Translations under genes and position numbers: made by a program | In this document: piece after piece, positions 87-5,699 of the stretch | Layout: every line of letters starts with the position of its first letter | How positions within the stretch are numbered: position 1 is the first letter of the stretch | Origin: a virus | IMG/VR virus record: IMGVR_UViG_3300017613_000835 | Span: 1 to 5,780 of that record | Strand: one strand, 5' to 3' | Length of the DNA stretch: 5,780 nt | Notes under the pieces: model-generated | What the model was told of the DNA's origin: nothing | Databases searched by the model: none | What the model saw: only the letters and a program-made list of their open reading frames with translations

Positions 87-101
87 AAAGGAGTAAAAAT
101 A

Positions 102-281
102 ATGGTAAAAACAAAAAAAGGATTATTCGGTGTAGTATTCGGCTTTATAGTAGGAATAGCATCAATATTCTTAGTAAAAACAGGAGTATTAGACAAAGAA
201 ACAGTAGATTCAGTAGTAAAAGAAGCAGACTTCTTCATTAATCAATTAGATGAAAGGAGCGATAAAAGATATGGACGATAA
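102..281 (+). CDS. 59-aa small membrane protein (N-terminal single TM helix, charged C-terminal tail); candidate lysis protein
   Basis: Not in the supplied track. AAAAAGGAG lies upstream (GGAG 90-93), with spacing like that of the H and J genes. Translation: MVKTKKGLFGVVFGFIVGIASIFLVKTGVLDKETVDSVVKEADFFINQLDERSDKRYGR. It has a basic N-terminus, a hydrophobic stretch of about 19 residues (GLFGVVFGFIVGIASIFLV), and a charged tail. Codon usage matches the rest of the genome. Confidence 0.62.
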   Translation: MVKTKKGLFGVVFGFIVGIASIFLVKTGVLDKETVDSVVKEADFFINQLDERSDKRYGR

Positions 282-414
282 ATGGTATTATTATGATGAA
301 GTAGCAGAAGACCAAAAGTTATATGTATATTACGATAAGGAATTATCAGAACAAAAAGTAAATAGAGAAATAAAGAAAGAGGTGAAACATGGAATTAAAC
401 AGAACCACATATAG
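271..414 (+). CDS. Hypothetical 47-aa Tyr-rich acidic protein (MDDKWYYYDEVAEDQKLYVYYDKELSEQKVNREIKKEVKHGIKQNHI)
   Basis: This is the only open frame spanning the J-F gap after the TM ORF. It overlaps the TM ORF by 11 nt and the F start by 26 nt. The GGAG at 256-259 is 15 nt before the ATG, farther than for the other genes, which weakens the call. Confidence 0.3.
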   Translation: MDDKWYYYDEVAEDQKLYVYYDKELSEQKVNREIKKEVKHGIKQNHI

Positions 415-1663
415 TCTAGACCACCACTCGTTTAACGTCGGTGCAATAGGCTCCCTACAAACTGTCTCTTGTGTGCCAGTCGTAGCAGGTGATTCAATGC
501 AGATGGATTTTCAAGGATTGTTTAGATTAGCACCATTAGTAAGAAATTTATATTTAGATGCAAAGTTAGATTTGTTTGCGTTCTATGTACCATACAGACA
601 TATATATGGAGATGATTGGACAGCATTCATTAAAGATGGAGTAGATGAAGCAACAACATTCGGTACATATACAGCAACAGATGTTATAAGATGTACAGGA
701 GCATACCAAACAGGTACAATACCAAAATGGAATATAGCAAGTTATGCAAGAATATGGAATAGATACTTTAGACACCCAACAGATGCAAATCAGATAGATG
801 ATGACCATTTAAAAGATACAGGAGATTCAGATATAGCACAATATGGTATGAAATGCACATATTTAAAAAGAATATGGAATACAGGAGTAGATGAAGAATT
901 AGTAGATGCAGACCATATATTAGATACAACAGCAGATAAGTTAGATTTATTTGATTTAGTACAGACACAAAATAGGTTAGAAACAGAAAGACAAAGAGAA
1001 TGGTTTGGACAAAGATACGCAGATGTAATGCGTAATGCATTCGGTACAAACGTAAATATAGATGCAGATGAAAGACCAGAGTTAATAATGAGAACAAGTC
1101 AATGGTTATCAGGACATGATGTAGATGGAACAGCATCAGACAATTTAGGTAAGTATGCAGGTAAAGCTTATGGAGTAGGTGAATTATCATTTCCAATGAA
1201 ATTCTTCCCAGAGCATGGTAGTTTATGGTTAATGGCATTAATTAGATTCCCAAGTATACCAAACTACGAAAAACATTATTTATATAGTCAAGCAGAGCCA
1301 AGTTATAAAGTAATAGCAGGTGACCCAGATGTAGTAGCAAATGAACCGCCAATAGTATTAGATGTAGCAGATTATATAGAAAATGCAACATGTAATGATG
1401 CAGGATTAATACCTTATGCACAATGGTATAGAGAGCATCCAAGTTATGTTCATGACAAGTATAGAGATGTAACAGGACATCCGTTTATAAGTAAAGTAAT
1501 AGCAACAGCAGATGATAGTAGATATATTACTGCAGGAGAATATGACAATATATTCCAAACAGAGGCATTAAAACATTGGAATTTACAAGGTCATATAGGA
1601 TTAACAGCAAAAAGAGTTATACCAGACCCTAAAACTAGTATATTCGCAGGTGTGGATAGATAA
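389..1663 (+). CDS. F: Major capsid protein F (phiX174 F type, 424 aa)
   Basis: AAGAGGTGA SD lies at 377-385. The ORF is colinear over its whole length with phiX174 F as I recall it (about 426 aa). Matching blocks: VVAGDSMQMDF...FRLAPLVR vs VIAGDSFEMDA...LRLSPLRR; FAFYVPYRHIYGDDWTAFIKDGV vs FTFYVPHRHVYGEQWIKFMKDGV; DADERPELIMRTSQWLSGHDVDGT vs DADNRPLLVMRSNLWASGYDVDGT; FFPEHGSLWLMALIRFP vs FVPEHGTMFTLALVRFP; AQWYREHPSYV vs GQWYRYAPSYV. It lacks the large insertion loop of gokushovirus VP1. Confidence 0.97.
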   Translation: MELNRTTYSLDHHSFNVGAIGSLQTVSCVPVVAGDSMQMDFQGLFRLAPLVRNLYLDAKLDLFAFYVPYRHIYGDDWTAFIKDGVDEATTFGTYTATDVIRCTGAYQTGTIPKWNIASYARIWNRYFRHPTDANQIDDDHLKDTGDSDIAQYGMKCTYLKRIWNTGVDEELVDADHILDTTADKLDLFDLVQTQNRLETERQREWFGQRYADVMRNAFGTNVNIDADERPELIMRTSQWLSGHDVDGTASDNLGKYAGKAYGVGELSFPMKFFPEHGSLWLMALIRFPSIPNYEKHYLYSQAEPSYKVIAGDPDVVANEPPIVLDVADYIENATCNDAGLIPYAQWYREHPSYVHDKYRDVTGHPFISKVIATADDSRYITAGEYDNIFQTEALKHWNLQGHIGLTAKRVIPDPKTSIFAGVDR

Positions 1664-1676
1664 GAAAGGATAAAAA

Positions 1677-1904
1677 ATGACAGAACCAATAAATGAATTA
1701 AAGGAATTTAAAACAGTAAACGAAATAACAGAAGAAGTATATGATAGGTATAAATCAGGAACAGATGTAGATTATATAGATTTAAAACCAGTAGAAAAGT
1801 ATCAATGGAAAGAAGCAACAAAAGATATGTTAATATCAAAAGAATTAGTGTATGATTATGAAAATAAAAAAATAGATATATTATTTGGAGAAAAGGTAAT
1901 ATAA
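1677..1904 (+). CDS. Hypothetical 75-aa acidic protein in the F-G gap
   Basis: GAAAGGA SD lies 6 nt upstream of the ATG. Codon usage is genome-typical. The ORF fills a position that is non-coding in phiX174. I recognise no motif. Confidence 0.65.
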   Translation: MTEPINELKEFKTVNEITEEVYDRYKSGTDVDYIDLKPVEKYQWKEATKDMLISKELVYDYENKKIDILFGEKVI

Positions 1905-1917
1905 GAAAGGAGTAAAA

Positions 1918-2538
1918 ATGTTACAACCAAATTTAAGAGGAAGTATGGCGCATAATATACATGCGGCACCAGTCGATTTTTTAACAGCAGATTTAGCGTT
2001 AATTGATAGTGATATATATAGTAAAACATATTTACCATATGCGTATACTGCAACAGTAGCAGATGATAGTGATGGTGTATCATATACAATAGCAACAGCT
2101 GCTCAAGCAATAGCAGATGATCAAAAAGTAGCATTAGGATTATATCTATCAGCAGATAATGAAAAAGGAAATTTAGTATTTAATTTACAAGGTTCAGTTT
2201 CAGCAAGATATTCAGCAAATGATGTTAGTACATTCTTTATATTCGGTAGGAGAGATGGAGCAGTAACAAGTACAAAAGCAGGAACAGCAAATCAATTAGG
2301 TAGAAATATTATATTACCATTAGATACAATAAGTCAAGATGATGGATTAGTATTTGCATCAATTAATCAAAGTATAATAATACAATGTGATACAACAGAT
2401 ACAGCAGTAGCATATTGTTTTGCATTAGTAATGGAAAACGAAACTGGTGGAGCAGTTACAGCAAAAATGGAATCAACACTAAGTATGCAGAAATATAGTT
2501 GGATAGAACAAACACATGATCCAGCTTATTCAGTATAG
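1918..2538 (+). CDS. Putative major spike protein (G-position ORF, 206 aa)
   Basis: GAAAGGAG SD lies upstream. The ORF sits between F and H exactly where phiX174 G (175 aa) lies. Its composition is rich in Ala/Thr/Ser/Asp/Val and poor in Lys/Glu, unlike the rest of the proteome and consistent with a beta-rich surface protein. I see no sequence similarity to phiX G by eye, so the function rests on synteny only. Confidence 0.55.
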   Translation: MLQPNLRGSMAHNIHAAPVDFLTADLALIDSDIYSKTYLPYAYTATVADDSDGVSYTIATAAQAIADDQKVALGLYLSADNEKGNLVFNLQGSVSARYSANDVSTFFIFGRRDGAVTSTKAGTANQLGRNIILPLDTISQDDGLVFASINQSIIIQCDTTDTAVAYCFALVMENETGGAVTAKMESTLSMQKYSWIEQTHDPAYSV

Positions 2539-2540
2539 AA

Positions 2541-2558
2541 ATATCGTTAGCACGATAT
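2541..2558 (+). promoter_or_regulatory. Intergenic stem-loop 1 (ATATCGT / tagc / ACGATAT)
   Basis: A perfect 7-bp inverted repeat with a 4-nt loop lies 3 nt after the G-position stop codon, in the only clear non-coding gap of the genome. Confidence 0.6.
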
Positions 2559-2563
2559 AGATA

Positions 2564-2594
2564 AACCTGGAGAGTTTACAAGGCTCTCCAGGTT
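2564..2594 (+). promoter_or_regulatory. Intergenic stem-loop 2 (AACCTGGAGAG / tttacaagg / CTCTCCAGGTT); candidate leaky terminator, mRNA stabiliser or minus-strand origin
   Basis: A perfect 11-bp inverted repeat with a 9-nt loop. It is locally much more G+C-rich than its surroundings. No T-tract follows it; it abuts the H-gene SD, so it is not a canonical intrinsic terminator. Confidence 0.65.
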
Positions 2595-2610
2595 GAAAGG
2601 AGTAATAACA

Positions 2611-3192
2611 ATGAACCCAGCAGTATTAGCATCATTAATTAAAGCAGGTGGAGATATAGCATCAACAGGAATAAATAAGATAACTGGAGTACCAACACCA
2701 AAAGGTGCATTTACACCGGGTGCAAAAGAAGGTAGTCAATATAGACAATTTTTAAATAAAGCTTATCCAGGTACAACAGTTTGGGAACAAATAGGTGCAT
2801 CAGGTGCAGGAACAGCAGGAGCAATAGGCTCAGGACATATGTCTAGTAGAGTGCAACAACAAGCTGTAGATATACAGAAAAAGAAAATGTTTGCAGAATT
2901 AGCAAATATAACAGCAAATACAGCAAAAACGTATCAAGATACAAAATTAGCAAAGAAAGTAACAGATAAAACAGAAGAAGAAAAACAAATGACACAAAAA
3001 GAAAATAGAATGAAAGAACCATTATTAGATGCACAATTAACAAGTGAAAGAGGTAGAAATCCAATGACTTATATGCAACATATAGCTGAAGGATTAGAGA
3101 GAAAAAAGATAGATTTTATAAATAAAGTTGGTGGATATTTATCAGATAGAAATATAAAAAAAATAAGAAAAAGAGGTTTGAGAAAAAATTAA
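2611..3192 (+). CDS. H: DNA pilot (minor spike) protein H homologue, short form (193 aa)
   Basis: The ATG at 2611 is preceded by GAAAGGAG (2595-2602). The track start at 2593 is a TTG lying inside the hairpin. The Gly/Ala-rich hydrophobic N-terminus MNPAVLASLIKAGGDIASTG resembles phiX H MFGAIAGGIASALAGG. YRQFLNKAYPGTTVWEQIGASGAG matches phiX [26 protein letters not shown]. A Gln/Lys/Glu-rich predicted coiled coil follows. The position between G and A matches phiX174. Confidence 0.85.
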   Translation: MNPAVLASLIKAGGDIASTGINKITGVPTPKGAFTPGAKEGSQYRQFLNKAYPGTTVWEQIGASGAGTAGAIGSGHMSSRVQQQAVDIQKKKMFAELANITANTAKTYQDTKLAKKVTDKTEEEKQMTQKENRMKEPLLDAQLTSERGRNPMTYMQHIAEGLERKKIDFINKVGGYLSDRNIKKIRKRGLRKN

Positions 3193-4704
3193 ATGTATAT
3201 GTTAAAAAAGGAAATAAAAGTGTCAGATTTATTATTTGATAAAGAATATAGATTAATAAACGCACTAAAAAGTAGAATAAGAGCATTAGAATATCAATGG
3301 AAAATAGGTAAAGATAAGTGTATAGTAACAGATAAATTAGAAGATAAATTAGATGTAGAGTTGGATTGTATATATAGTTATATCCGTCTAGTTAATAACT
3401 CCTTAAAAGTAAACAGTGAAGATAATTATAAAAAAGCTTATAAATATTACAAAGAATTACCAAAAACAATAAAAGAACATTCAGAAAAGTTGTTAGGTTA
3501 TTATTATGTAAGAAGAAATACAGATTATGATAAATTAGAAGAGCTTAAAAAAACAAAAAAAATATATTTGACTATGAAGTGGAAAACTGATAAAATAGAT
3601 AAAATGATAAAAAAAGAAGAAATGAGAGTTAAATATATGGAAAATTATAAGAAAATGTTAAAAAGTTCATGTTTAAAAGCAAGAAAATATGAATTACAAA
3701 GTAGGTTAATGTATGAAATGCAACAAAGAGTAAACGAAGGTTGGTATATAATATTTAATACACTAACAGTAAACAGTTTCAATATAAAAAATGTATTTGA
3801 TAATGGAAGTAAAGGATTTATGAAATATGTAAGAAAAGTAGATAGAGAAGTAGGAAGAAAGATATATGGTAAGTTTAGAGATATACCAGATAATGCAGAA
3901 TATCATAGATATTTTGGAGTAGTAGAAAGAGGTAGTGAAACAGGTAGATTACATATACACGTTATTCATATGGTAAAAGAACTCCCAGAGGGATGTTATG
4001 ATATGAATAGAGGAAAGCAAATACCAAGCAATAGAGAAATATCAAGATTCAAAAAATATTGGGAATATGGATTCAGTTCTCCTATAGCAGTAAGATTTAA
4101 TAGCAGTGATGCATATGGTAAGTTAGGATGGCGAGTGCCATGTAAAATGGAAGAAGATGGAAATTATAGTATAGTAGATAATGGAAGTGTAGATAAAGTA
4201 GTAGGATATATGAGTAAATATATCAATAAAGAGTTAGAAAAAGAGAAAGGAGATGAAATACCATGGAGAACGAGAATGACAAGAGGATTAGGAATGAAGA
4301 TAGTAAAGAAAATAGTACAGTCAATGACAGCGAAAGAATTAATAATGATAATGTCGTTGAAAAGGAACAAAAGGATAAAGTTGAAGGACAAAGAGATACC
4401 AATGAGCTTGTTAAGGAAAGAAGCGATAAAGATATATATGATGACGAAGAAAGAGAAAGAGAATTTGAAAGAAAATATGGTAAAAATAAAGCCACGGAAA
4501 GGTATCTTAGAAGTTATAAGGGATATAATAAGAATGAAAAAGGAGTACAGCAAAGCGAATTATACAGATATAAAGACTCTGAATATGAGAAAGATGGATG
4601 GATTTAAATTAGTAAATAAAATAAAGAAAATAGAAAAAGAGATGTTCGGAGAAAATATAATAAAGTTAGATGTATTAGGAACAACAATAGATAGTATTGT
4701 ATAA
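3193..4704 (+). CDS. A: Replication initiation protein A (HUH rolling-circle endonuclease, 503 aa)
   Basis: The ATG directly abuts the H stop codon. RCR motif I is FNTLTV (3754-3771), motif II (HUH) is GRLHIHVIH (HIH at 3952-3960), and motif III with two Tyr is VVGYMSKYINK (Tyr codons 4207-4209 and 4219-4221, residues 339/343, versus 343/347 in phiX A). Blocks matching phiX A as recalled: EGWYIIFNTLT vs DGWFIVFDTLT; TGRLHIHVIHMVKELPEG vs NGRLHFHAVHFMRTLPTG; WEYGFSSPIAVRF vs WPYGYSMPIAVRY; RTRMTRGLGMKIV vs RIRMSRNFGMKML. The N-terminal ~175 aa are Lys-rich and I cannot align them by eye. Confidence 0.95.
   Translation: MYMLKKEIKVSDLLFDKEYRLINALKSRIRALEYQWKIGKDKCIVTDKLEDKLDVELDCIYSYIRLVNNSLKVNSEDNYKKAYKYYKELPKTIKEHSEKLLGYYYVRRNTDYDKLEELKKTKKIYLTMKWKTDKIDKMIKKEEMRVKYMENYKKMLKSSCLKARKYELQSRLMYEMQQRVNEGWYIIFNTLTVNSFNIKNVFDNGSKGFMKYVRKVDREVGRKIYGKFRDIPDNAEYHRYFGVVERGSETGRLHIHVIHMVKELPEGCYDMNRGKQIPSNREISRFKKYWEYGFSSPIAVRFNSSDAYGKLGWRVPCKMEEDGNYSIVDNGSVDKVVGYMSKYINKELEKEKGDEIPWRTRMTRGLGMKIVKKIVQSMTAKELIMIMSLKRNKRIKLKDKEIPMSLLRKEAIKIYMMTKKEKENLKENMVKIKPRKGILEVIRDIIRMKKEYSKANYTDIKTLNMRKMDGFKLVNKIKKIEKEMFGENIIKLDVLGTTIDSIV
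4263..4607 (+). CDS. B: Internal scaffolding protein B-like ORF, overprinted inside gene A in the +2 frame (114 aa)
   Basis: AAAGGAG at 4246-4252 lies 10 nt before the ATG, and this SD is embedded in A coding sequence. The ORF starts about 14 codons after the catalytic Tyr motif of A and ends 97 nt before the A stop, closely mirroring phiX174 B (120 aa, nested in A, ending 85 nt before the A stop). The protein is highly charged. Its aromatic C-terminus SELYRYKDSEYEKDGWI resembles phiX B AEFYRFHDAEVNTFGYF. Caveat: the region is purine-rich, so open frames arise more easily here. Confidence 0.7.
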   Translation: MENENDKRIRNEDSKENSTVNDSERINNDNVVEKEQKDKVEGQRDTNELVKERSDKDIYDDEEREREFERKYGKNKATERYLRSYKGYNKNEKGVQQSELYRYKDSEYEKDGWI

Positions 4705-4710
4705 GGAGAG

Positions 4711-4962
4711 ATGATGCTTAATGAATTAAATATGATGGTAATACATATGAAAGTAATAGGAGAAATATTAAGTTATGGACAAATATTAGAAAATACAAAA
4801 GAATTAATAGTAGATGGAGTATTTAGAGTAGAAAGAATAGTAGATGAAATAATGATGTATATAGAATTAAATCATGATGAAAGATTAAAATATATGTGTA
4901 GTGAAAGGAATAGGAAATTATATGATACAAAAAATATTAGCGTTAGCATTAAAATTAAGTAG
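4711..4962 (+). CDS. Hypothetical 83-aa protein at the gene C position (possible DNA maturation/packaging factor)
   Basis: The ORF begins just after the A stop codon. AAGGAGAG at 4703-4710 is very close to the ATG at 4711, so the second ATG at 4714 has more typical spacing. Size and position match phiX174 C (86 aa), but I see no sequence similarity by eye. Confidence 0.5.
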   Translation: MMLNELNMMVIHMKVIGEILSYGQILENTKELIVDGVFRVERIVDEIMMYIELNHDERLKYMCSERNRKLYDTKNISVSIKIK

Positions 4963-5080
4963 GTTATATAGCTTATTCCATTACTACTTAGATGAAGAAG
5001 AAGAAAAAATGTTAAAAGAAGAAATAAAAGAAATTAAAAAGGATATAGAAAAAATAAAACAAGCAATTAAAGAGATATAG
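4922..5080 (+). CDS. Hypothetical 52-aa protein overlapping the 3' end of the C-position ORF (MIQKILALALKLSRLYSLFHYYLDEEEEKMLKEEIKEIKKDIEKIKQAIKEI)
   Basis: Not in the supplied track. A weak SD (AGGA at 4912-4915) lies 6 nt before the ATG. The N-terminal half is amphipathic/hydrophobic and the C-terminal half is a charged heptad-like helix. The stop codon lies immediately before the SD of the next small ORF, so with this ORF the C-D interval becomes fully coding. Confidence 0.35.
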   Translation: MIQKILALALKLSRLYSLFHYYLDEEEEKMLKEEIKEIKKDIEKIKQAIKEI

Positions 5081-5090
5081 AAAGGAGAGT

Positions 5091-5171
5091 ATGCTTGATA
5101 TAGTAACAATATTAGTGTTATTAGCAATATTCAATGAATTAAAAGATAAGAAAAATAGAAAGGATAGATAA
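5091..5171 (+). CDS. Possible 26-aa hydrophobic micropeptide (MLDIVTILVLLAIFNELKDKKNRKDR), translationally coupled to D
   Basis: AAAGGAGAGT lies immediately upstream, with short spacing. The TAA stop is directly followed by the D ATG (TAAATG). The hydrophobic core IVTILVLLAIF is short for a TM helix. The same DNA carries the ori-like motif, so the ORF may be incidental. Confidence 0.25.
   Translation: MLDIVTILVLLAIFNELKDKKNRKDR
5094..5115 (+). promoter_or_regulatory. Candidate viral-strand (+) origin / Rep nick site, phiX174-ori-like
   Basis: CTTGATATAGTAACAATATTAG compares with the phiX174 origin CAACTTG^ATATTAATAACACTATAGACCAC. The 8-mer CTTGATAT spanning the gpA cleavage site is exact, and TAACA and TAT(T)AG follow with two 1-nt indels. 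This is the only CTTGA I found in the window. The predicted nick lies between G5097 and A5098. Confidence 0.35.
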
Positions 5172-5699
5172 ATGGGTCTAAATTACGAAGTAGCAAAAGG
5201 TACAATGAATTTAATAGCAAATCAGTGTAAAGAAGGATGGTTAGAAACATGTTGTATAACAAAAGACGACTTTGATAAATTAACAGCACCAGTATGTTGG
5301 TTATCAGTAGATAGAAATAGAGTAACACAAACATTCTTCAGTTTATTGTACGGAACAGTAGATGCAATAGGAATACCTAGATTCACGTTACCAGCAGAGT
5401 ATATAGCATCAGCAATATCAGTTTATATAGACCCAGTAAACGTGTTAGTAGCATGTAGATTCTTTGAAAAAGTACCTACAGCAGAAGGATTAGGTAGAGG
5501 AGTAGATAACATAGAAAATGTAACGTCAAAACAGTTGTTTGGATTAGTAGTACAGTTAGTAGCAGATGTAGAAAATAGTAATGCAAGATGTTTATTCGAG
5601 AAAAAAACAGGATTAGTAGTTAGTAGGACAAAAAGAATAGAAATGTTAGAAAAAAAGAAAAGAGGTGATATAGATGGCAAGAAATATCAGAAGACCTAG
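5172..5699 (+). CDS. D: External scaffolding protein D (175 aa)
   Basis: GAAAGGA SD lies 7 nt upstream. Matches to phiX174 D as recalled: ITKDDFDKLTAPVCWLSVDRNR vs LTEDDFDFLTSNKVWIATDRSR, and LYGTVDAIGIPRFTLPAEYIASAISVYIDPVNVLVAC vs VYGTLDFVGYPRFPAPVEFIAAVIAYYVHPVNIQTAC. It is longer than phiX D (152 aa) because of a Lys-rich C-terminal extension that overlaps the J start. Confidence 0.93.
   Translation: MGLNYEVAKGTMNLIANQCKEGWLETCCITKDDFDKLTAPVCWLSVDRNRVTQTFFSLLYGTVDAIGIPRFTLPAEYIASAISVYIDPVNVLVACRFFEKVPTAEGLGRGVDNIENVTSKQLFGLVVQLVADVENSNARCLFEKKTGLVVSRTKRIEMLEKKKRGDIDGKKYQKT

What the first reader, a model, noticed from the sequence alone, without database searches (positions are those of the whole stretch)
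4263..4607. B-like internal scaffolding gene overprinted inside the Rep gene at the same relative position as in phiX174
A 114-codon ORF in the +2 frame of gene A has its own AAAGGAG SD embedded in A coding sequence. It starts just downstream of the catalytic Tyr motif and stops 97 nt before the A stop (85 nt in phiX174). Its product is highly charged and ends in an aromatic tail, ELYRYKDSEYEKDGWI, resembling the phiX B tail EFYRFHDAEVNTFGYF. In the published procapsid structures that tail is the ordered segment that binds the coat protein. Elsewhere in this genome (I read both off-frames of D) stops recur every 5-30 codons in off-frames, so a 114-codon open off-frame is unusual. If the ORF is real, the A/B overlap predates the split between this AT-rich lineage and the enterobacterial phages. 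It would also offer a second, very divergent sequence pair for studying dual-coding constraints.
Basis: partly seen in the sequence, partly recalled or inferred. Interest (0 to 1): 0.65.

Follow-up and report, generated by a model that had tools for sequence, protein, structure and literature searches.

The report
Hidden phiX-type scaffolding gene inside Rep
A second real gene sits in another reading frame inside this small AT-rich phage's replication gene; it is a distant homologue of the phiX174 internal scaffolding protein B, present but unannotated in every relative examined, so the finding is solid but an expected extension of a known arrangement.

Summary
The 114-codon ORF at 4263-4607 exists as described. 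It lies in the +2 frame of Rep/A, behind an AAAGGAG Shine-Dalgarno sequence, and begins 14 codons after the catalytic YMSKY motif. It stops 97 nt before the A stop.

It is not a composition artefact. No other off-frame run in the five long genes exceeds 39 codons. Codon-shuffle and synonymous-permutation nulls give P <= 0.0005, or 0.006 with a conservative local pool.

All 16 distinct pequenovirus-like genomes recovered (GC 30-52%) keep a 113-126-codon ORF in the same frame with the same aromatic tail. Gene callers and the GenBank pequenovirus record do not list it.

A profile of these ORFs matches phiX174/G4/NC28 protein B (hhalign 97%, E 8.5e-11). PDB returns phiX B at E 2.4e-5, with the next hit at 0.77.

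In the last 30 codons the most variable site is B's third codon position, which is A's second. That shows purifying selection on B there. Over A's WRTR motif the pattern reverses.

Codon usage favours B as the older frame, as Pavesi proposed for phiX174, so "overprinted" probably runs the other way.

Verdict: a new member of a known kind, of moderate interest.

The parts
4263..4607 (+). B-like internal scaffolding gene (114 codons plus TAA), in the +2 frame of Rep/A
   Evidence: ORF list and sequence. Nulls P<=0.0005. Conserved in 16/16 relatives. Phage_B, PHROG 1473, hhalign and PDB matches.
4246..4252 (+). Shine-Dalgarno AAAGGAG, 10 nt upstream of the B start, written in Rep codons E-K-G
   Evidence: Sequence. 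A purine-rich GGA(G) block 8-10 nt upstream recurs in most relatives checked and coincides with Rep's conserved K-G.
4263..4265 (+). B start codon ATG, made of the last base of Rep codon 357 plus the TG of Rep's invariant Trp358 (motif WRTR)
   Evidence: Sequence. W358 and R359 are invariant in the Rep alignment. The start is ATG in 15 relatives and GTG in L010.
4263..4502 (+). N-terminal ~80 codons of B: acidic, polar, poorly conserved and predicted disordered. Here Rep is the better conserved frame.
   Evidence: Per-bin conservation, B -0.9 to 1.3 vs A up to 3.3. AF2 pLDDT below 50 for residues 1-3 and 10-43. Over the first 12 codons B's third position (= A's second) is the least variable.
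4503..4604 (+). C-terminal ~34 codons of B (YLRSYKGYNKNEKGVQQSELYRYKDSEYEKDGWI): the conserved aromatic tail and inferred coat-binding segment. Here B is the better conserved frame.
   Evidence: hhalign aligns residues 73-114 end to end with phiX B 79-120. Conservation is B 1.0-3.6 vs A -0.3 to 0.9. B's third codon position is the most variable, and A-frame identity equals that of the non-coding frame. AF2 pLDDT is 80-87 at residues 81-100.
3193..4704 (+). Rep / gene A (503 aa), the host frame. Its C-terminal third carries the overlap.
   Evidence: Phage_GPA and PHROG 713, E 3e-82. Alignment with relatives.
4207..4221 (+). Rep catalytic two-tyrosine motif YMSKY (A residues 339-343)
   Evidence: Y339, Y343 and K346 are invariant in 9 Reps. 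The phiX174 equivalent is YVAKY 343-347.

Best explanation
Positions 4263-4607 encode a real protein, a distant homologue of the internal scaffolding protein B of phiX174-type phages. It is nested in the +2 frame of the last third of the replication gene.

Shown here: the frame is kept open in every relative. The product family is related to enterobacterial B. Its C-terminal ~30-35 residues evolve under purifying selection at the protein level.

Inferred from what is established for phiX174: ribosomes start at the ATG built on Rep's Trp358 codon, using the AAAGGAG embedded in Rep codons. The acidic, disordered N-terminal ~80 residues act as a tolerant spacer inside the procapsid. The aromatic C-terminal tail (...SELYRYKDSEYEKDGWI) docks on the inner face of coat protein F. 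That would keep F pentamers assembly-competent and help build the procapsid together with the external scaffold D, which this genome also encodes. B would then leave when DNA and the J peptide are packaged.

The two overlapping genes coexist by dividing the ground. Rep is constrained over the 5' part of the overlap (WRTRxSRxLG and following). B is constrained over the 3' part, where Rep is nearly free.
For: Openness. The run is 116 codons against at most 39 elsewhere. Codon-shuffle and synonymous-permutation nulls give P<=0.0005 in the window and <=0.0045 in each of 9 genomes. The local null gives 0.0058.

Conservation. 16/16 distinct genomes spanning 30-52% GC have a 113-126-aa ORF in the same +2 frame. 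It stops 76-181 nt before the Rep stop and carries the tail Q-x-[AS]-E-[FYHM]-[YW]-x-[FY]...G-[RN]-[FL].

Homology. Pfam Phage_B hits 13/16 members, 2 above the curated cutoff, with the window at 26.4 vs 27. PHROG 1473 gives 2.4e-7. hhalign against phiX/G4/NC28 B gives 97.0%, E 8.5e-11, aligned end to end at the C-termini. PDB returns phiX174 B (1M0F_B, 1AL0_B/1CD3) at 2.4e-5 and 3.7e-5, with the next hit at 0.77.

Not a shadow of Rep homology. Over the same nucleotides the hhalign score is 60.0 in the B frame, 38.4 in the A frame and 28.2 in the third frame.

Selection. A third-position differences drop from 0.451 to 0.222 in the overlap for L004/L005 (p 9e-6) and from ~0.54 to ~0.38 for L008-L011. 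In the last 30 B codons, differences by B position 1/2/3 are 0.13/0.17/0.30, 0.28/0.24/0.53 and 0.52/0.47/0.65. Tail amino-acid identity is B 0.68 vs A 0.37 vs third frame 0.39.

Context. The same genome encodes F, a D-like external scaffold (gpD 8e-19, PHROG 1386 7e-43), an H-like protein and a J-like peptide.

Structure. AF2 predicts a disordered N-terminal half and a helical C-terminal part. The only two Foldseek PDB matches are phiX procapsid chain B, though neither is significant.
Against: No expression or protein data exist for this phage, and its host is unknown.

The window's own protein misses Pfam's curated Phage_B cutoff by 0.6 bit.

The window has no close relative: the best Rep identity is ~40%. 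So the substitution-pattern evidence comes from sister lineages, and the window/L003 pair itself is saturated (0.487 vs 0.461).

The SD spacer of 10 nt is on the long side, and no promoter signal stands out upstream.

The N-terminal M-E-N conservation is dictated by Rep's WRTR motif, so it is not independent evidence. The frames are not independent either, since the non-coding third frame still scores 28 in hhalign.

Coat binding by the tail is inferred from phiX174, not tested here. The Foldseek E-values (1.8 and 5.5) are not significant.
Confidence: 0.88

Rival explanations
1. The open frame is a by-product of local purine richness and AT-rich codon usage, and no protein is made.
For: The region is 73% purine on the + strand. 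Two minus-strand frames are also open for 99 and 83 of 115 codons.
Against: Nulls that keep the Rep protein and codon pool give P 0.0005, and the local-pool null gives 0.0058. Relatives with 51-60% purine and up to 52% GC keep the same frame open in 16/16 cases, whereas minus-strand frames vary from 19 to 125 codons. The tail shows third-position-dominated variation in the B frame. The product matches B profiles.
Confidence: 0.01
2. The ORF is a real, conserved gene and a homologue of B, but in this lineage it does something other than internal scaffolding, for example a regulatory or host-directed role.
For: No functional data exist. The N-terminal ~80 residues are unrelated in sequence between lineages. 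Laboratory phiX174 lines that dispense with B are known from the literature (my recollection, not checked here), so the role is not immutable.
Against: The full phiX assembly set (F, D, J, H-like) is present.
Confidence: 0.08
3. The conservation reflects a nucleic-acid element (a replication, packaging or mRNA structure signal) or purely Rep's own constraints. The B-frame similarity to phiX B is then a passive shadow of Rep homology.
For: Rep is homologous across the two lineages over this region (A-frame hhalign E 2.8e-6). Even the third frame scores 28. The M-E-N start is forced by Rep's WRTR.
Against: The B frame scores far higher than the A frame over the same bases, 60.0 vs 38.4. In the tail, Rep amino-acid identity equals that of the non-coding frame (0.37 vs 0.39) while B is at 0.68. 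Variation is concentrated at B's third codon position, a protein-coding signature that a DNA or RNA element would not give.
Confidence: 0.02

Closest known systems
Internal scaffolding protein B of Bullavirinae (phiX174, G4, alpha3/NC28; Pfam PF02304 Phage_B, PHROG 1473; PDB 1AL0, 1CD3, 1M0F chain B)
   Same: Nested in the +2 frame of the 3' third of gene A, starting shortly after the catalytic Tyr motif and stopping 76-181 nt before the A stop (97 nt in the window; 85 nt in phiX). About 115-125 aa and mostly acidic (14 of 16; pI 4.05-7.99), with a variable N-terminal half and a conserved aromatic C-terminal tail (..Q-P-A-E-F-Y-R-F......G-Y-F vs ..Q-S-E-L-Y-R-Y......G-W-I). Co-encoded with F, D, J and H. 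B is the more genome-like frame by codon usage.
   Different: Only ~20-26% identity over the last 42-65 residues, with no alignable N-terminal half. The start sits on Rep's WRTR Trp codon, ~16 codons downstream of the position homologous to the phiX start. The tail ends G-R-F in 12 of 16 (G-W-I in the window), not G-Y-F. The genome has 30% GC, an unknown non-enterobacterial host, and no E-type gene inside D.
Eel River basin pequenovirus NC_026665 / KP087957 (Bryson et al. 2015), the described sister clade of the enterobacterial microviruses
   Same: The closest record: 70% nt identity over 39% of the genome. Its Rep groups with the window's (94/93 support). It carries the same nested ORF at 717-1067 (116 aa, MENKTNKD...AAELWNYNDSDYEQYGRF).
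   Different: That ORF is not annotated in the record. It is 27% identical to the window's product and much more acidic (net -22 vs -6). I could not read the 2015 paper, so I cannot say whether its text mentions a B gene.
VP3 internal scaffolding protein of Gokushovirinae (Chp2, phiMH2K)
   Same: Regarded as the functional analogue of B. The phiMH2K record's own note says so, as does Kirchberger et al. 2022 (PMC9239249).
   Different: A free-standing gene that is not nested in Rep. No detectable sequence relationship: hhalign probability 0.05-0.12%.
OG63, the ORF overprinted in the Rep C-terminal end of reekeekeeviruses (PMC9865509)
   Same: A conserved ORF hidden in the less conserved C-terminal part of a microvirus Rep and missed by gene callers.
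   Different: A different microvirus group with small Reps, of unknown function. I did not test any relationship to B.

Membership tests
Microvirus internal scaffolding protein B (Pfam PF02304 Phage_B) | Sequence match to the family profile | tested here: met
   Window protein: 26.4 bits, E 1.4e-5, full-length alignment 4-113 to 9-108/109, which is 0.6 bit below the curated cutoff of 27. Two family members pass it (L015 32.8, L020 28.0) and 13/16 match at E<=0.03. Family profile vs phiX/G4/NC28 B: hhalign 97.0%, E 8.5e-11. PDB phiX B: 2.4e-5. PHROG 1473: 2.4e-7. Met at family level, borderline for the single sequence.
Microvirus internal scaffolding protein B (Pfam PF02304 Phage_B) | Gene nested in the +2 frame of the 3' part of gene A, downstream of the catalytic tyrosines and ending before the A stop | tested here: met
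   The frame offset is 2 in the window, all 15 relatives, phiX174, G4 and NC28. The start is 14 codons after YMSKY and the stop 97 nt before the A stop.
Microvirus internal scaffolding protein B (Pfam PF02304 Phage_B) | About 120 aa, acidic, with a variable and largely disordered N-terminal part and an ordered C-terminal segment | tested here: met
   114 aa, pI 4.97. AF2 pLDDT is below 50 for residues 1-3 and 10-43 and 80-87 for 81-100. N-terminal conservation is near zero.
Microvirus internal scaffolding protein B (Pfam PF02304 Phage_B) | Conserved aromatic C-terminal tail under purifying selection | tested here: met
   Tail aligned end to end with phiX B. B third-position variation dominates, and B identity is 0.68 vs 0.37 for the A frame.
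Microvirus internal scaffolding protein B (Pfam PF02304 Phage_B) | Binds coat protein F inside the procapsid and is required for procapsid assembly | not testable with these tools
   No multimer prediction or experiment is available. The Foldseek matches to 1CD3_B and 1AL0_B are the only PDB hits but are not significant (E 1.8 and 5.5).
phiX174-plan microviruses (Kirchberger et al. Family 1 / Suborder I: Bullavirinae plus pequenoviruses) | External scaffolding protein D, short F-type capsid protein, and a spike-position gene | tested here: met
   gpD PF02925 8.3e-19 and PHROG 1386 7e-43. Phage_F 7e-57 with a 424-aa product. A 206-aa gene in the G position has no profile match. The Rep tree places the window with the pequenovirus and apart from gokushovirus Reps (100/100).
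Gokushovirinae VP3 scaffold (considered) | Sequence relationship to VP3 | tested here: not met
   hhalign probability 0.05% (A6 vs Chp2 and phiMH2K VP3) and 0.12% (entero B vs VP3). No Pfam hit other than Phage_B.

The most novel reading that the evidence does not exclude
The A/B dual-coding arrangement is not an enterobacterial-phage peculiarity. It was already present in the common ancestor of all D-encoding, phiX-plan microviruses.

It arose with B as the older frame: Rep's C-terminal ~150 residues were laid over a pre-existing scaffolding gene. In the last ~30 codons of the overlap Rep is essentially passenger sequence.

The 19 deeply diverged lineages (30-52% GC) would then be replicate outcomes of one ancient overlap. 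They show that the conflict is resolved by spatial partition of constraint rather than by compromise at each codon.
Probability: 0.5. Interest if true: 0.55.

Novelty: new member of a known kind. Interest (0 to 1): 0.4.

Why it matters
First, it adds a core assembly gene to the annotation of a whole sister lineage of phiX174. Gene callers, the GenBank pequenovirus record and a 5.8-billion-protein collection essentially never list this gene: one unnamed entry matched. Large surveys of microvirus diversity state that they omit overprinted genes outside Bullavirinae (PMC9239249).

Second, it pushes the origin of the textbook A/B overlap back to before the radiation of phiX-plan phages. It extends the codon-usage inference that B is the older frame from three coliphage clades to 16 further genomes.

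Third, it supplies many highly divergent pairs for studying how two proteins share one sequence. The pattern is clear and testable: Rep is constrained 5', B is constrained 3'.

Fourth, the conserved tail motif gives a handle for asking how the scaffold-coat contact co-evolves.

Tried and rejected
- A single-protein scan of viral contigs with the window's Rep found nothing. One of them, L016, is a Rep in a non-microvirus context whose +2 ORF has no B tail and no Phage_B hit.
- The large protein index showed no Rep closer than ~40% identity, so a synonymous-rate test on the window itself was impossible. The window/L003 pair is saturated.
- Bryson et al. 2015 is not held, so I could not check whether B is mentioned there.
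- The promoter scan shows fewer sigma-70-like sites than shuffles and none placed like phiX P_B, so I drew no conclusion from it.
- I counted T-ending Rep codons before AA/AG/GA (0/388 in overlaps vs 534/1373 outside). This is a restatement of openness, not independent evidence.
- B vs gokushovirus VP3 homology is negative.
- The Foldseek result for the AF2 model is not significant.
- Pfam scans of the small genes downstream of B and A (C/K positions) gave no hits.
- The minus-strand ORFs are rejected as genes. They are open only erratically among relatives, and one of them is the codon-for-codon antisense of a Leu/Ser-poor protein.
Full report
**What the window is.** The 5780 bases are a complete circular microvirus genome of 5659 nt with a 121-nt terminal repeat and 30% GC. 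All genes lie on one strand in the phiX174 plan:
- a J-like peptide (16-84)
- a 59-aa membrane protein (102-281)
- capsid F (389-1663; Phage_F 7e-57)
- a 75-aa ORF
- a G-position gene (1918-2538)
- a short H-like gene (2593-3192; Microvir_H 1.8e-4)
- Rep/A (3193-4704; PHROG 713 3e-82)
- two small ORFs
- a D-like external scaffold (5172-5699; gpD 8e-19, PHROG 1386 7e-43)

The closest public record is the Eel River basin pequenovirus NC_026665, at 70% nt identity over 39% of the genome. That phage belongs to the sister group of the enterobacterial microviruses, which Kirchberger et al. place with Bullavirinae in 'Family 1 / Suborder I' (PMC9239249).

**Check of the observation.**
- The ORF at 4263-4607 has 114 codons in the +2 frame of Rep, the same offset as phiX174 B in A.
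- AAAGGAG lies at 4246-4252, 10 nt before the ATG.
- Rep's two-tyrosine motif YMSKY is at residues 339-343, and B begins in codon 357. In phiX174 the motif is YVAKY 343-347 and B begins in codon 365.
- The ORF stops 97 nt before the Rep stop, against 85 nt in phiX174, G4 and NC28.
- The product is 51% charged, has pI 4.97, and ends ELYRYKDSEYEKDGWI.

The open frame is far beyond chance.
- In the off-frames of the five long genes, the next longest stop-free run is 39 codons, against 116 here.
- Shuffling Rep's codons never gave an ATG-ORF this long (0/2000).
- Permuting synonymous codons while keeping the Rep protein left this stretch open in 0.05% of trials.
- A deliberately conservative permutation using only the overlap's own codons gave 0.58%.

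**Relatives.** I collected the following:
- 9 IMG/VR loci found with a Rep alignment
- 2 metagenome loci
- 6 contigs carrying Rep homologues from the large protein index

After removing duplicates (L001=L003, and L006/L007 carry an identical nested ORF product), there are 16 distinct phiX-plan genomes with GC from 30% to 52%.

Every one of the 16 has a 113-126-codon ORF in the +2 frame of Rep. It starts at or beside the Trp codon of the Rep motif W-R-[TI]-[RK]; the start is ATG in 15 and GTG in L010. It stops 76-181 nt before the Rep stop. It ends in a tail of the form Q-x-[AS]-E-[FYHM]-[YW]-x-[FY]-...-G-[RN]-[FL].

None of these ORFs was called by the gene callers of the source collections. 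The GenBank pequenovirus record does not annotate its copy at 717-1067. A profile search of 5.8 billion predicted proteins found a single unnamed entry.

It fails because the 50-52% GC genomes keep the frame. The minus-strand frames that are open in the window vary between 19 and 125 codons among relatives. One of them is simply the codon-for-codon antisense of a protein poor in Leu and Ser.

**Homology to protein B.**
- The window's product matches Pfam Phage_B over its full length at 26.4 bits (E 1.4e-5), 0.6 bit under the curated cutoff. It also matches PHROG 1473 at 2.4e-7.
- Thirteen of the 16 family members match Phage_B, and two exceed the cutoff.
- A profile of the 16 sequences against an alignment of phiX174, G4 and NC28 B gives hhalign probability 97.0%, E 8.5e-11. 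The last 42 residues align end to end.
- Against all PDB sequences, the same profile returns the phiX174 B chains at 2.4e-5 and 3.7e-5. The next hit is at 0.77.

Rep is homologous in both lineages and B lies in the same frame of it, so I tested whether the B similarity is a passive shadow. Over the same nucleotides the hhalign score is 60.0 in the B frame, 38.4 in the Rep frame and 28.2 in the third frame. The frames are therefore not independent, but B is clearly the best conserved reading.

An AF2 model built on the family alignment has a disordered N-terminal half and a helical C-terminal part, with pLDDT 80-87 at residues 81-100. Its only two Foldseek matches in the PDB are chain B of the phiX174 procapsid. 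Their E-values are 1.8 and 5.5, so I count this as weak corroboration only.

**Selection.** In the closest pair (L004/L005, Rep 80% identical), differences at Rep third codon positions fall from 0.451 outside the overlap to 0.222 inside it (Fisher p 9e-6). Rep amino-acid identity is the same in both parts. The four-genome clade L008-L011 shows the same drop.

The sharpest result comes from the last 30 B codons, which align without gaps from the stop. The most variable site there is B's third codon position: 0.30, 0.53, 0.61 and 0.65 in four comparison sets, against 0.13-0.52 for B's positions 1 and 2. Yet that site is Rep's second codon position, where every change alters Rep. In that stretch Rep amino-acid identity (0.37 in L008-L011) equals that of the non-coding third frame (0.39), while B stands at 0.68.

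Over the first 12 codons, which lie on Rep's WRTRxSRxLG motif, the pattern is reversed and B's third position is the least variable. Binned conservation across all 16 genomes shows the same see-saw. Rep is the better conserved frame for the first ~80 overlap codons, and B for the last ~35.

Two details follow from this. The M-E/A-N start of B is dictated by Rep (TGG AGA ACN read as aTG GAG AAC), so it is not independent evidence. The Shine-Dalgarno block is likewise written in Rep's conserved K-G.

**Which frame is older.** Codon usage of the B frame correlates with the rest of each genome (mean r 0.48). It does so much better than the Rep frame over the same bases (0.22), which is no better than the non-coding frame (0.17). 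B wins in 15 of 16 genomes (Wilcoxon p 6e-5). A synonymous-only version gives the same direction in 13 of 16 (p 0.001). phiX174, G4 and NC28 behave identically in my implementation.

A Rep-core tree separates the gokushovirus outgroups (100/100) from all 19 phiX-plan Reps. Within those 19 the backbone is unresolved. The window groups with the pequenovirus, L017, L018 and L019 (94/93). Since all 19 lineages carry the nested gene, the simplest reading is that the overlap was already present in their common ancestor.

A test for a deeper link to the free-standing VP3 scaffold of gokushoviruses was negative.

**How it most likely works.**
- Shown: a conserved, selected protein-coding frame related to B.
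- Inferred from phiX174 biology: translation from its own SD; an acidic, disordered N-terminal spacer; docking of the aromatic tail on the inner face of F to keep coat pentamers assembly-competent and to build procapsids together with D; and expulsion during packaging.
- Not tested: expression, coat binding and essentiality.

**Comparison and verdict.** This is a member of the B family by sequence, genomic position, size, composition and tail. It differs in three ways:
- It is extremely diverged (~20-26% identity, restricted to the C-terminal third).
- Its start is shifted ~16 Rep codons relative to phiX.
- Its tail ends G-R-F or G-W-I, not G-Y-F.

It is a new member of a known kind. The result is solid and useful for annotation and for overlapping-gene studies, but a specialist would have expected a sister clade of phiX174 to share this arrangement.

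**Limits.**
- The window has no close relative.
- The 2015 pequenovirus paper could not be read.

Noticed in passing
L008:4510-4516, L009:4240-4246, L010:5039-5045, L011:1754-1760: In the ~50% GC clade the B stop overlaps an ATG (TAATG/TGATG). A 93-101-aa ORF opens at that ATG in L008, L010 and L011 and runs over the end of Rep. This is the same junction as B/K in phiX174 (TGATG). In L009 the ORF list puts the equivalent ORF's start at a TTG 3 nt upstream (4240). These ORFs have no Pfam match. The window lacks this coupling: its next gene starts after the Rep stop at 4711.
   Followed up: partly
L007 (IMGVR_UViG_3300020050_002980, 42,762-nt contig), 1-7392: A microvirus whose nested B ORF product is identical to that of the circular L006 sits at the end of a 42.8-kb viral contig. 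It is followed by a 481-aa ORF unrelated to microviruses. This is either a chimeric assembly or an integrated or co-assembled microvirus.
   Followed up: no
L016 (FUIF01003392.1), 1330-2463: A 377-aa Rep relative (GRLHFH, Y..KY-type) lies next to oppositely oriented genes that look non-microviral. It also has a 115-117-codon +2 ORF in its 3' part, but without the B tail and without a Phage_B hit.
   Followed up: partly
window 4164-4553 (-) and 4223-4495 (-): Two long minus-strand ORFs (129 and 90 aa) lie opposite the B region. They are by-products of purine richness and of B's Leu/Ser-poor composition, and they are not consistently open in relatives.
   Followed up: yes
L010:4545-5042: In this relative the conserved ATG of B is replaced by GTG (4668), and an upstream in-frame ATG would extend the ORF to 165 aa. 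The start choice there is uncertain.
   Followed up: no
window 102-281 and 5172-5699: No long off-frame ORF exists inside the D-like gene (longest run 25 codons), so there is no E-type nested lysis gene. A free-standing 59-aa protein with a hydrophobic N-terminus lies between J and F.
   Followed up: partly
window 3193-3600: The window's Rep has a ~130-residue N-terminal extension relative to the annotated Rep of NC_026665. That record instead annotates a separate 182-aa ORF running across its origin (5636..101), which probably belongs to the same Rep region.
   Followed up: no
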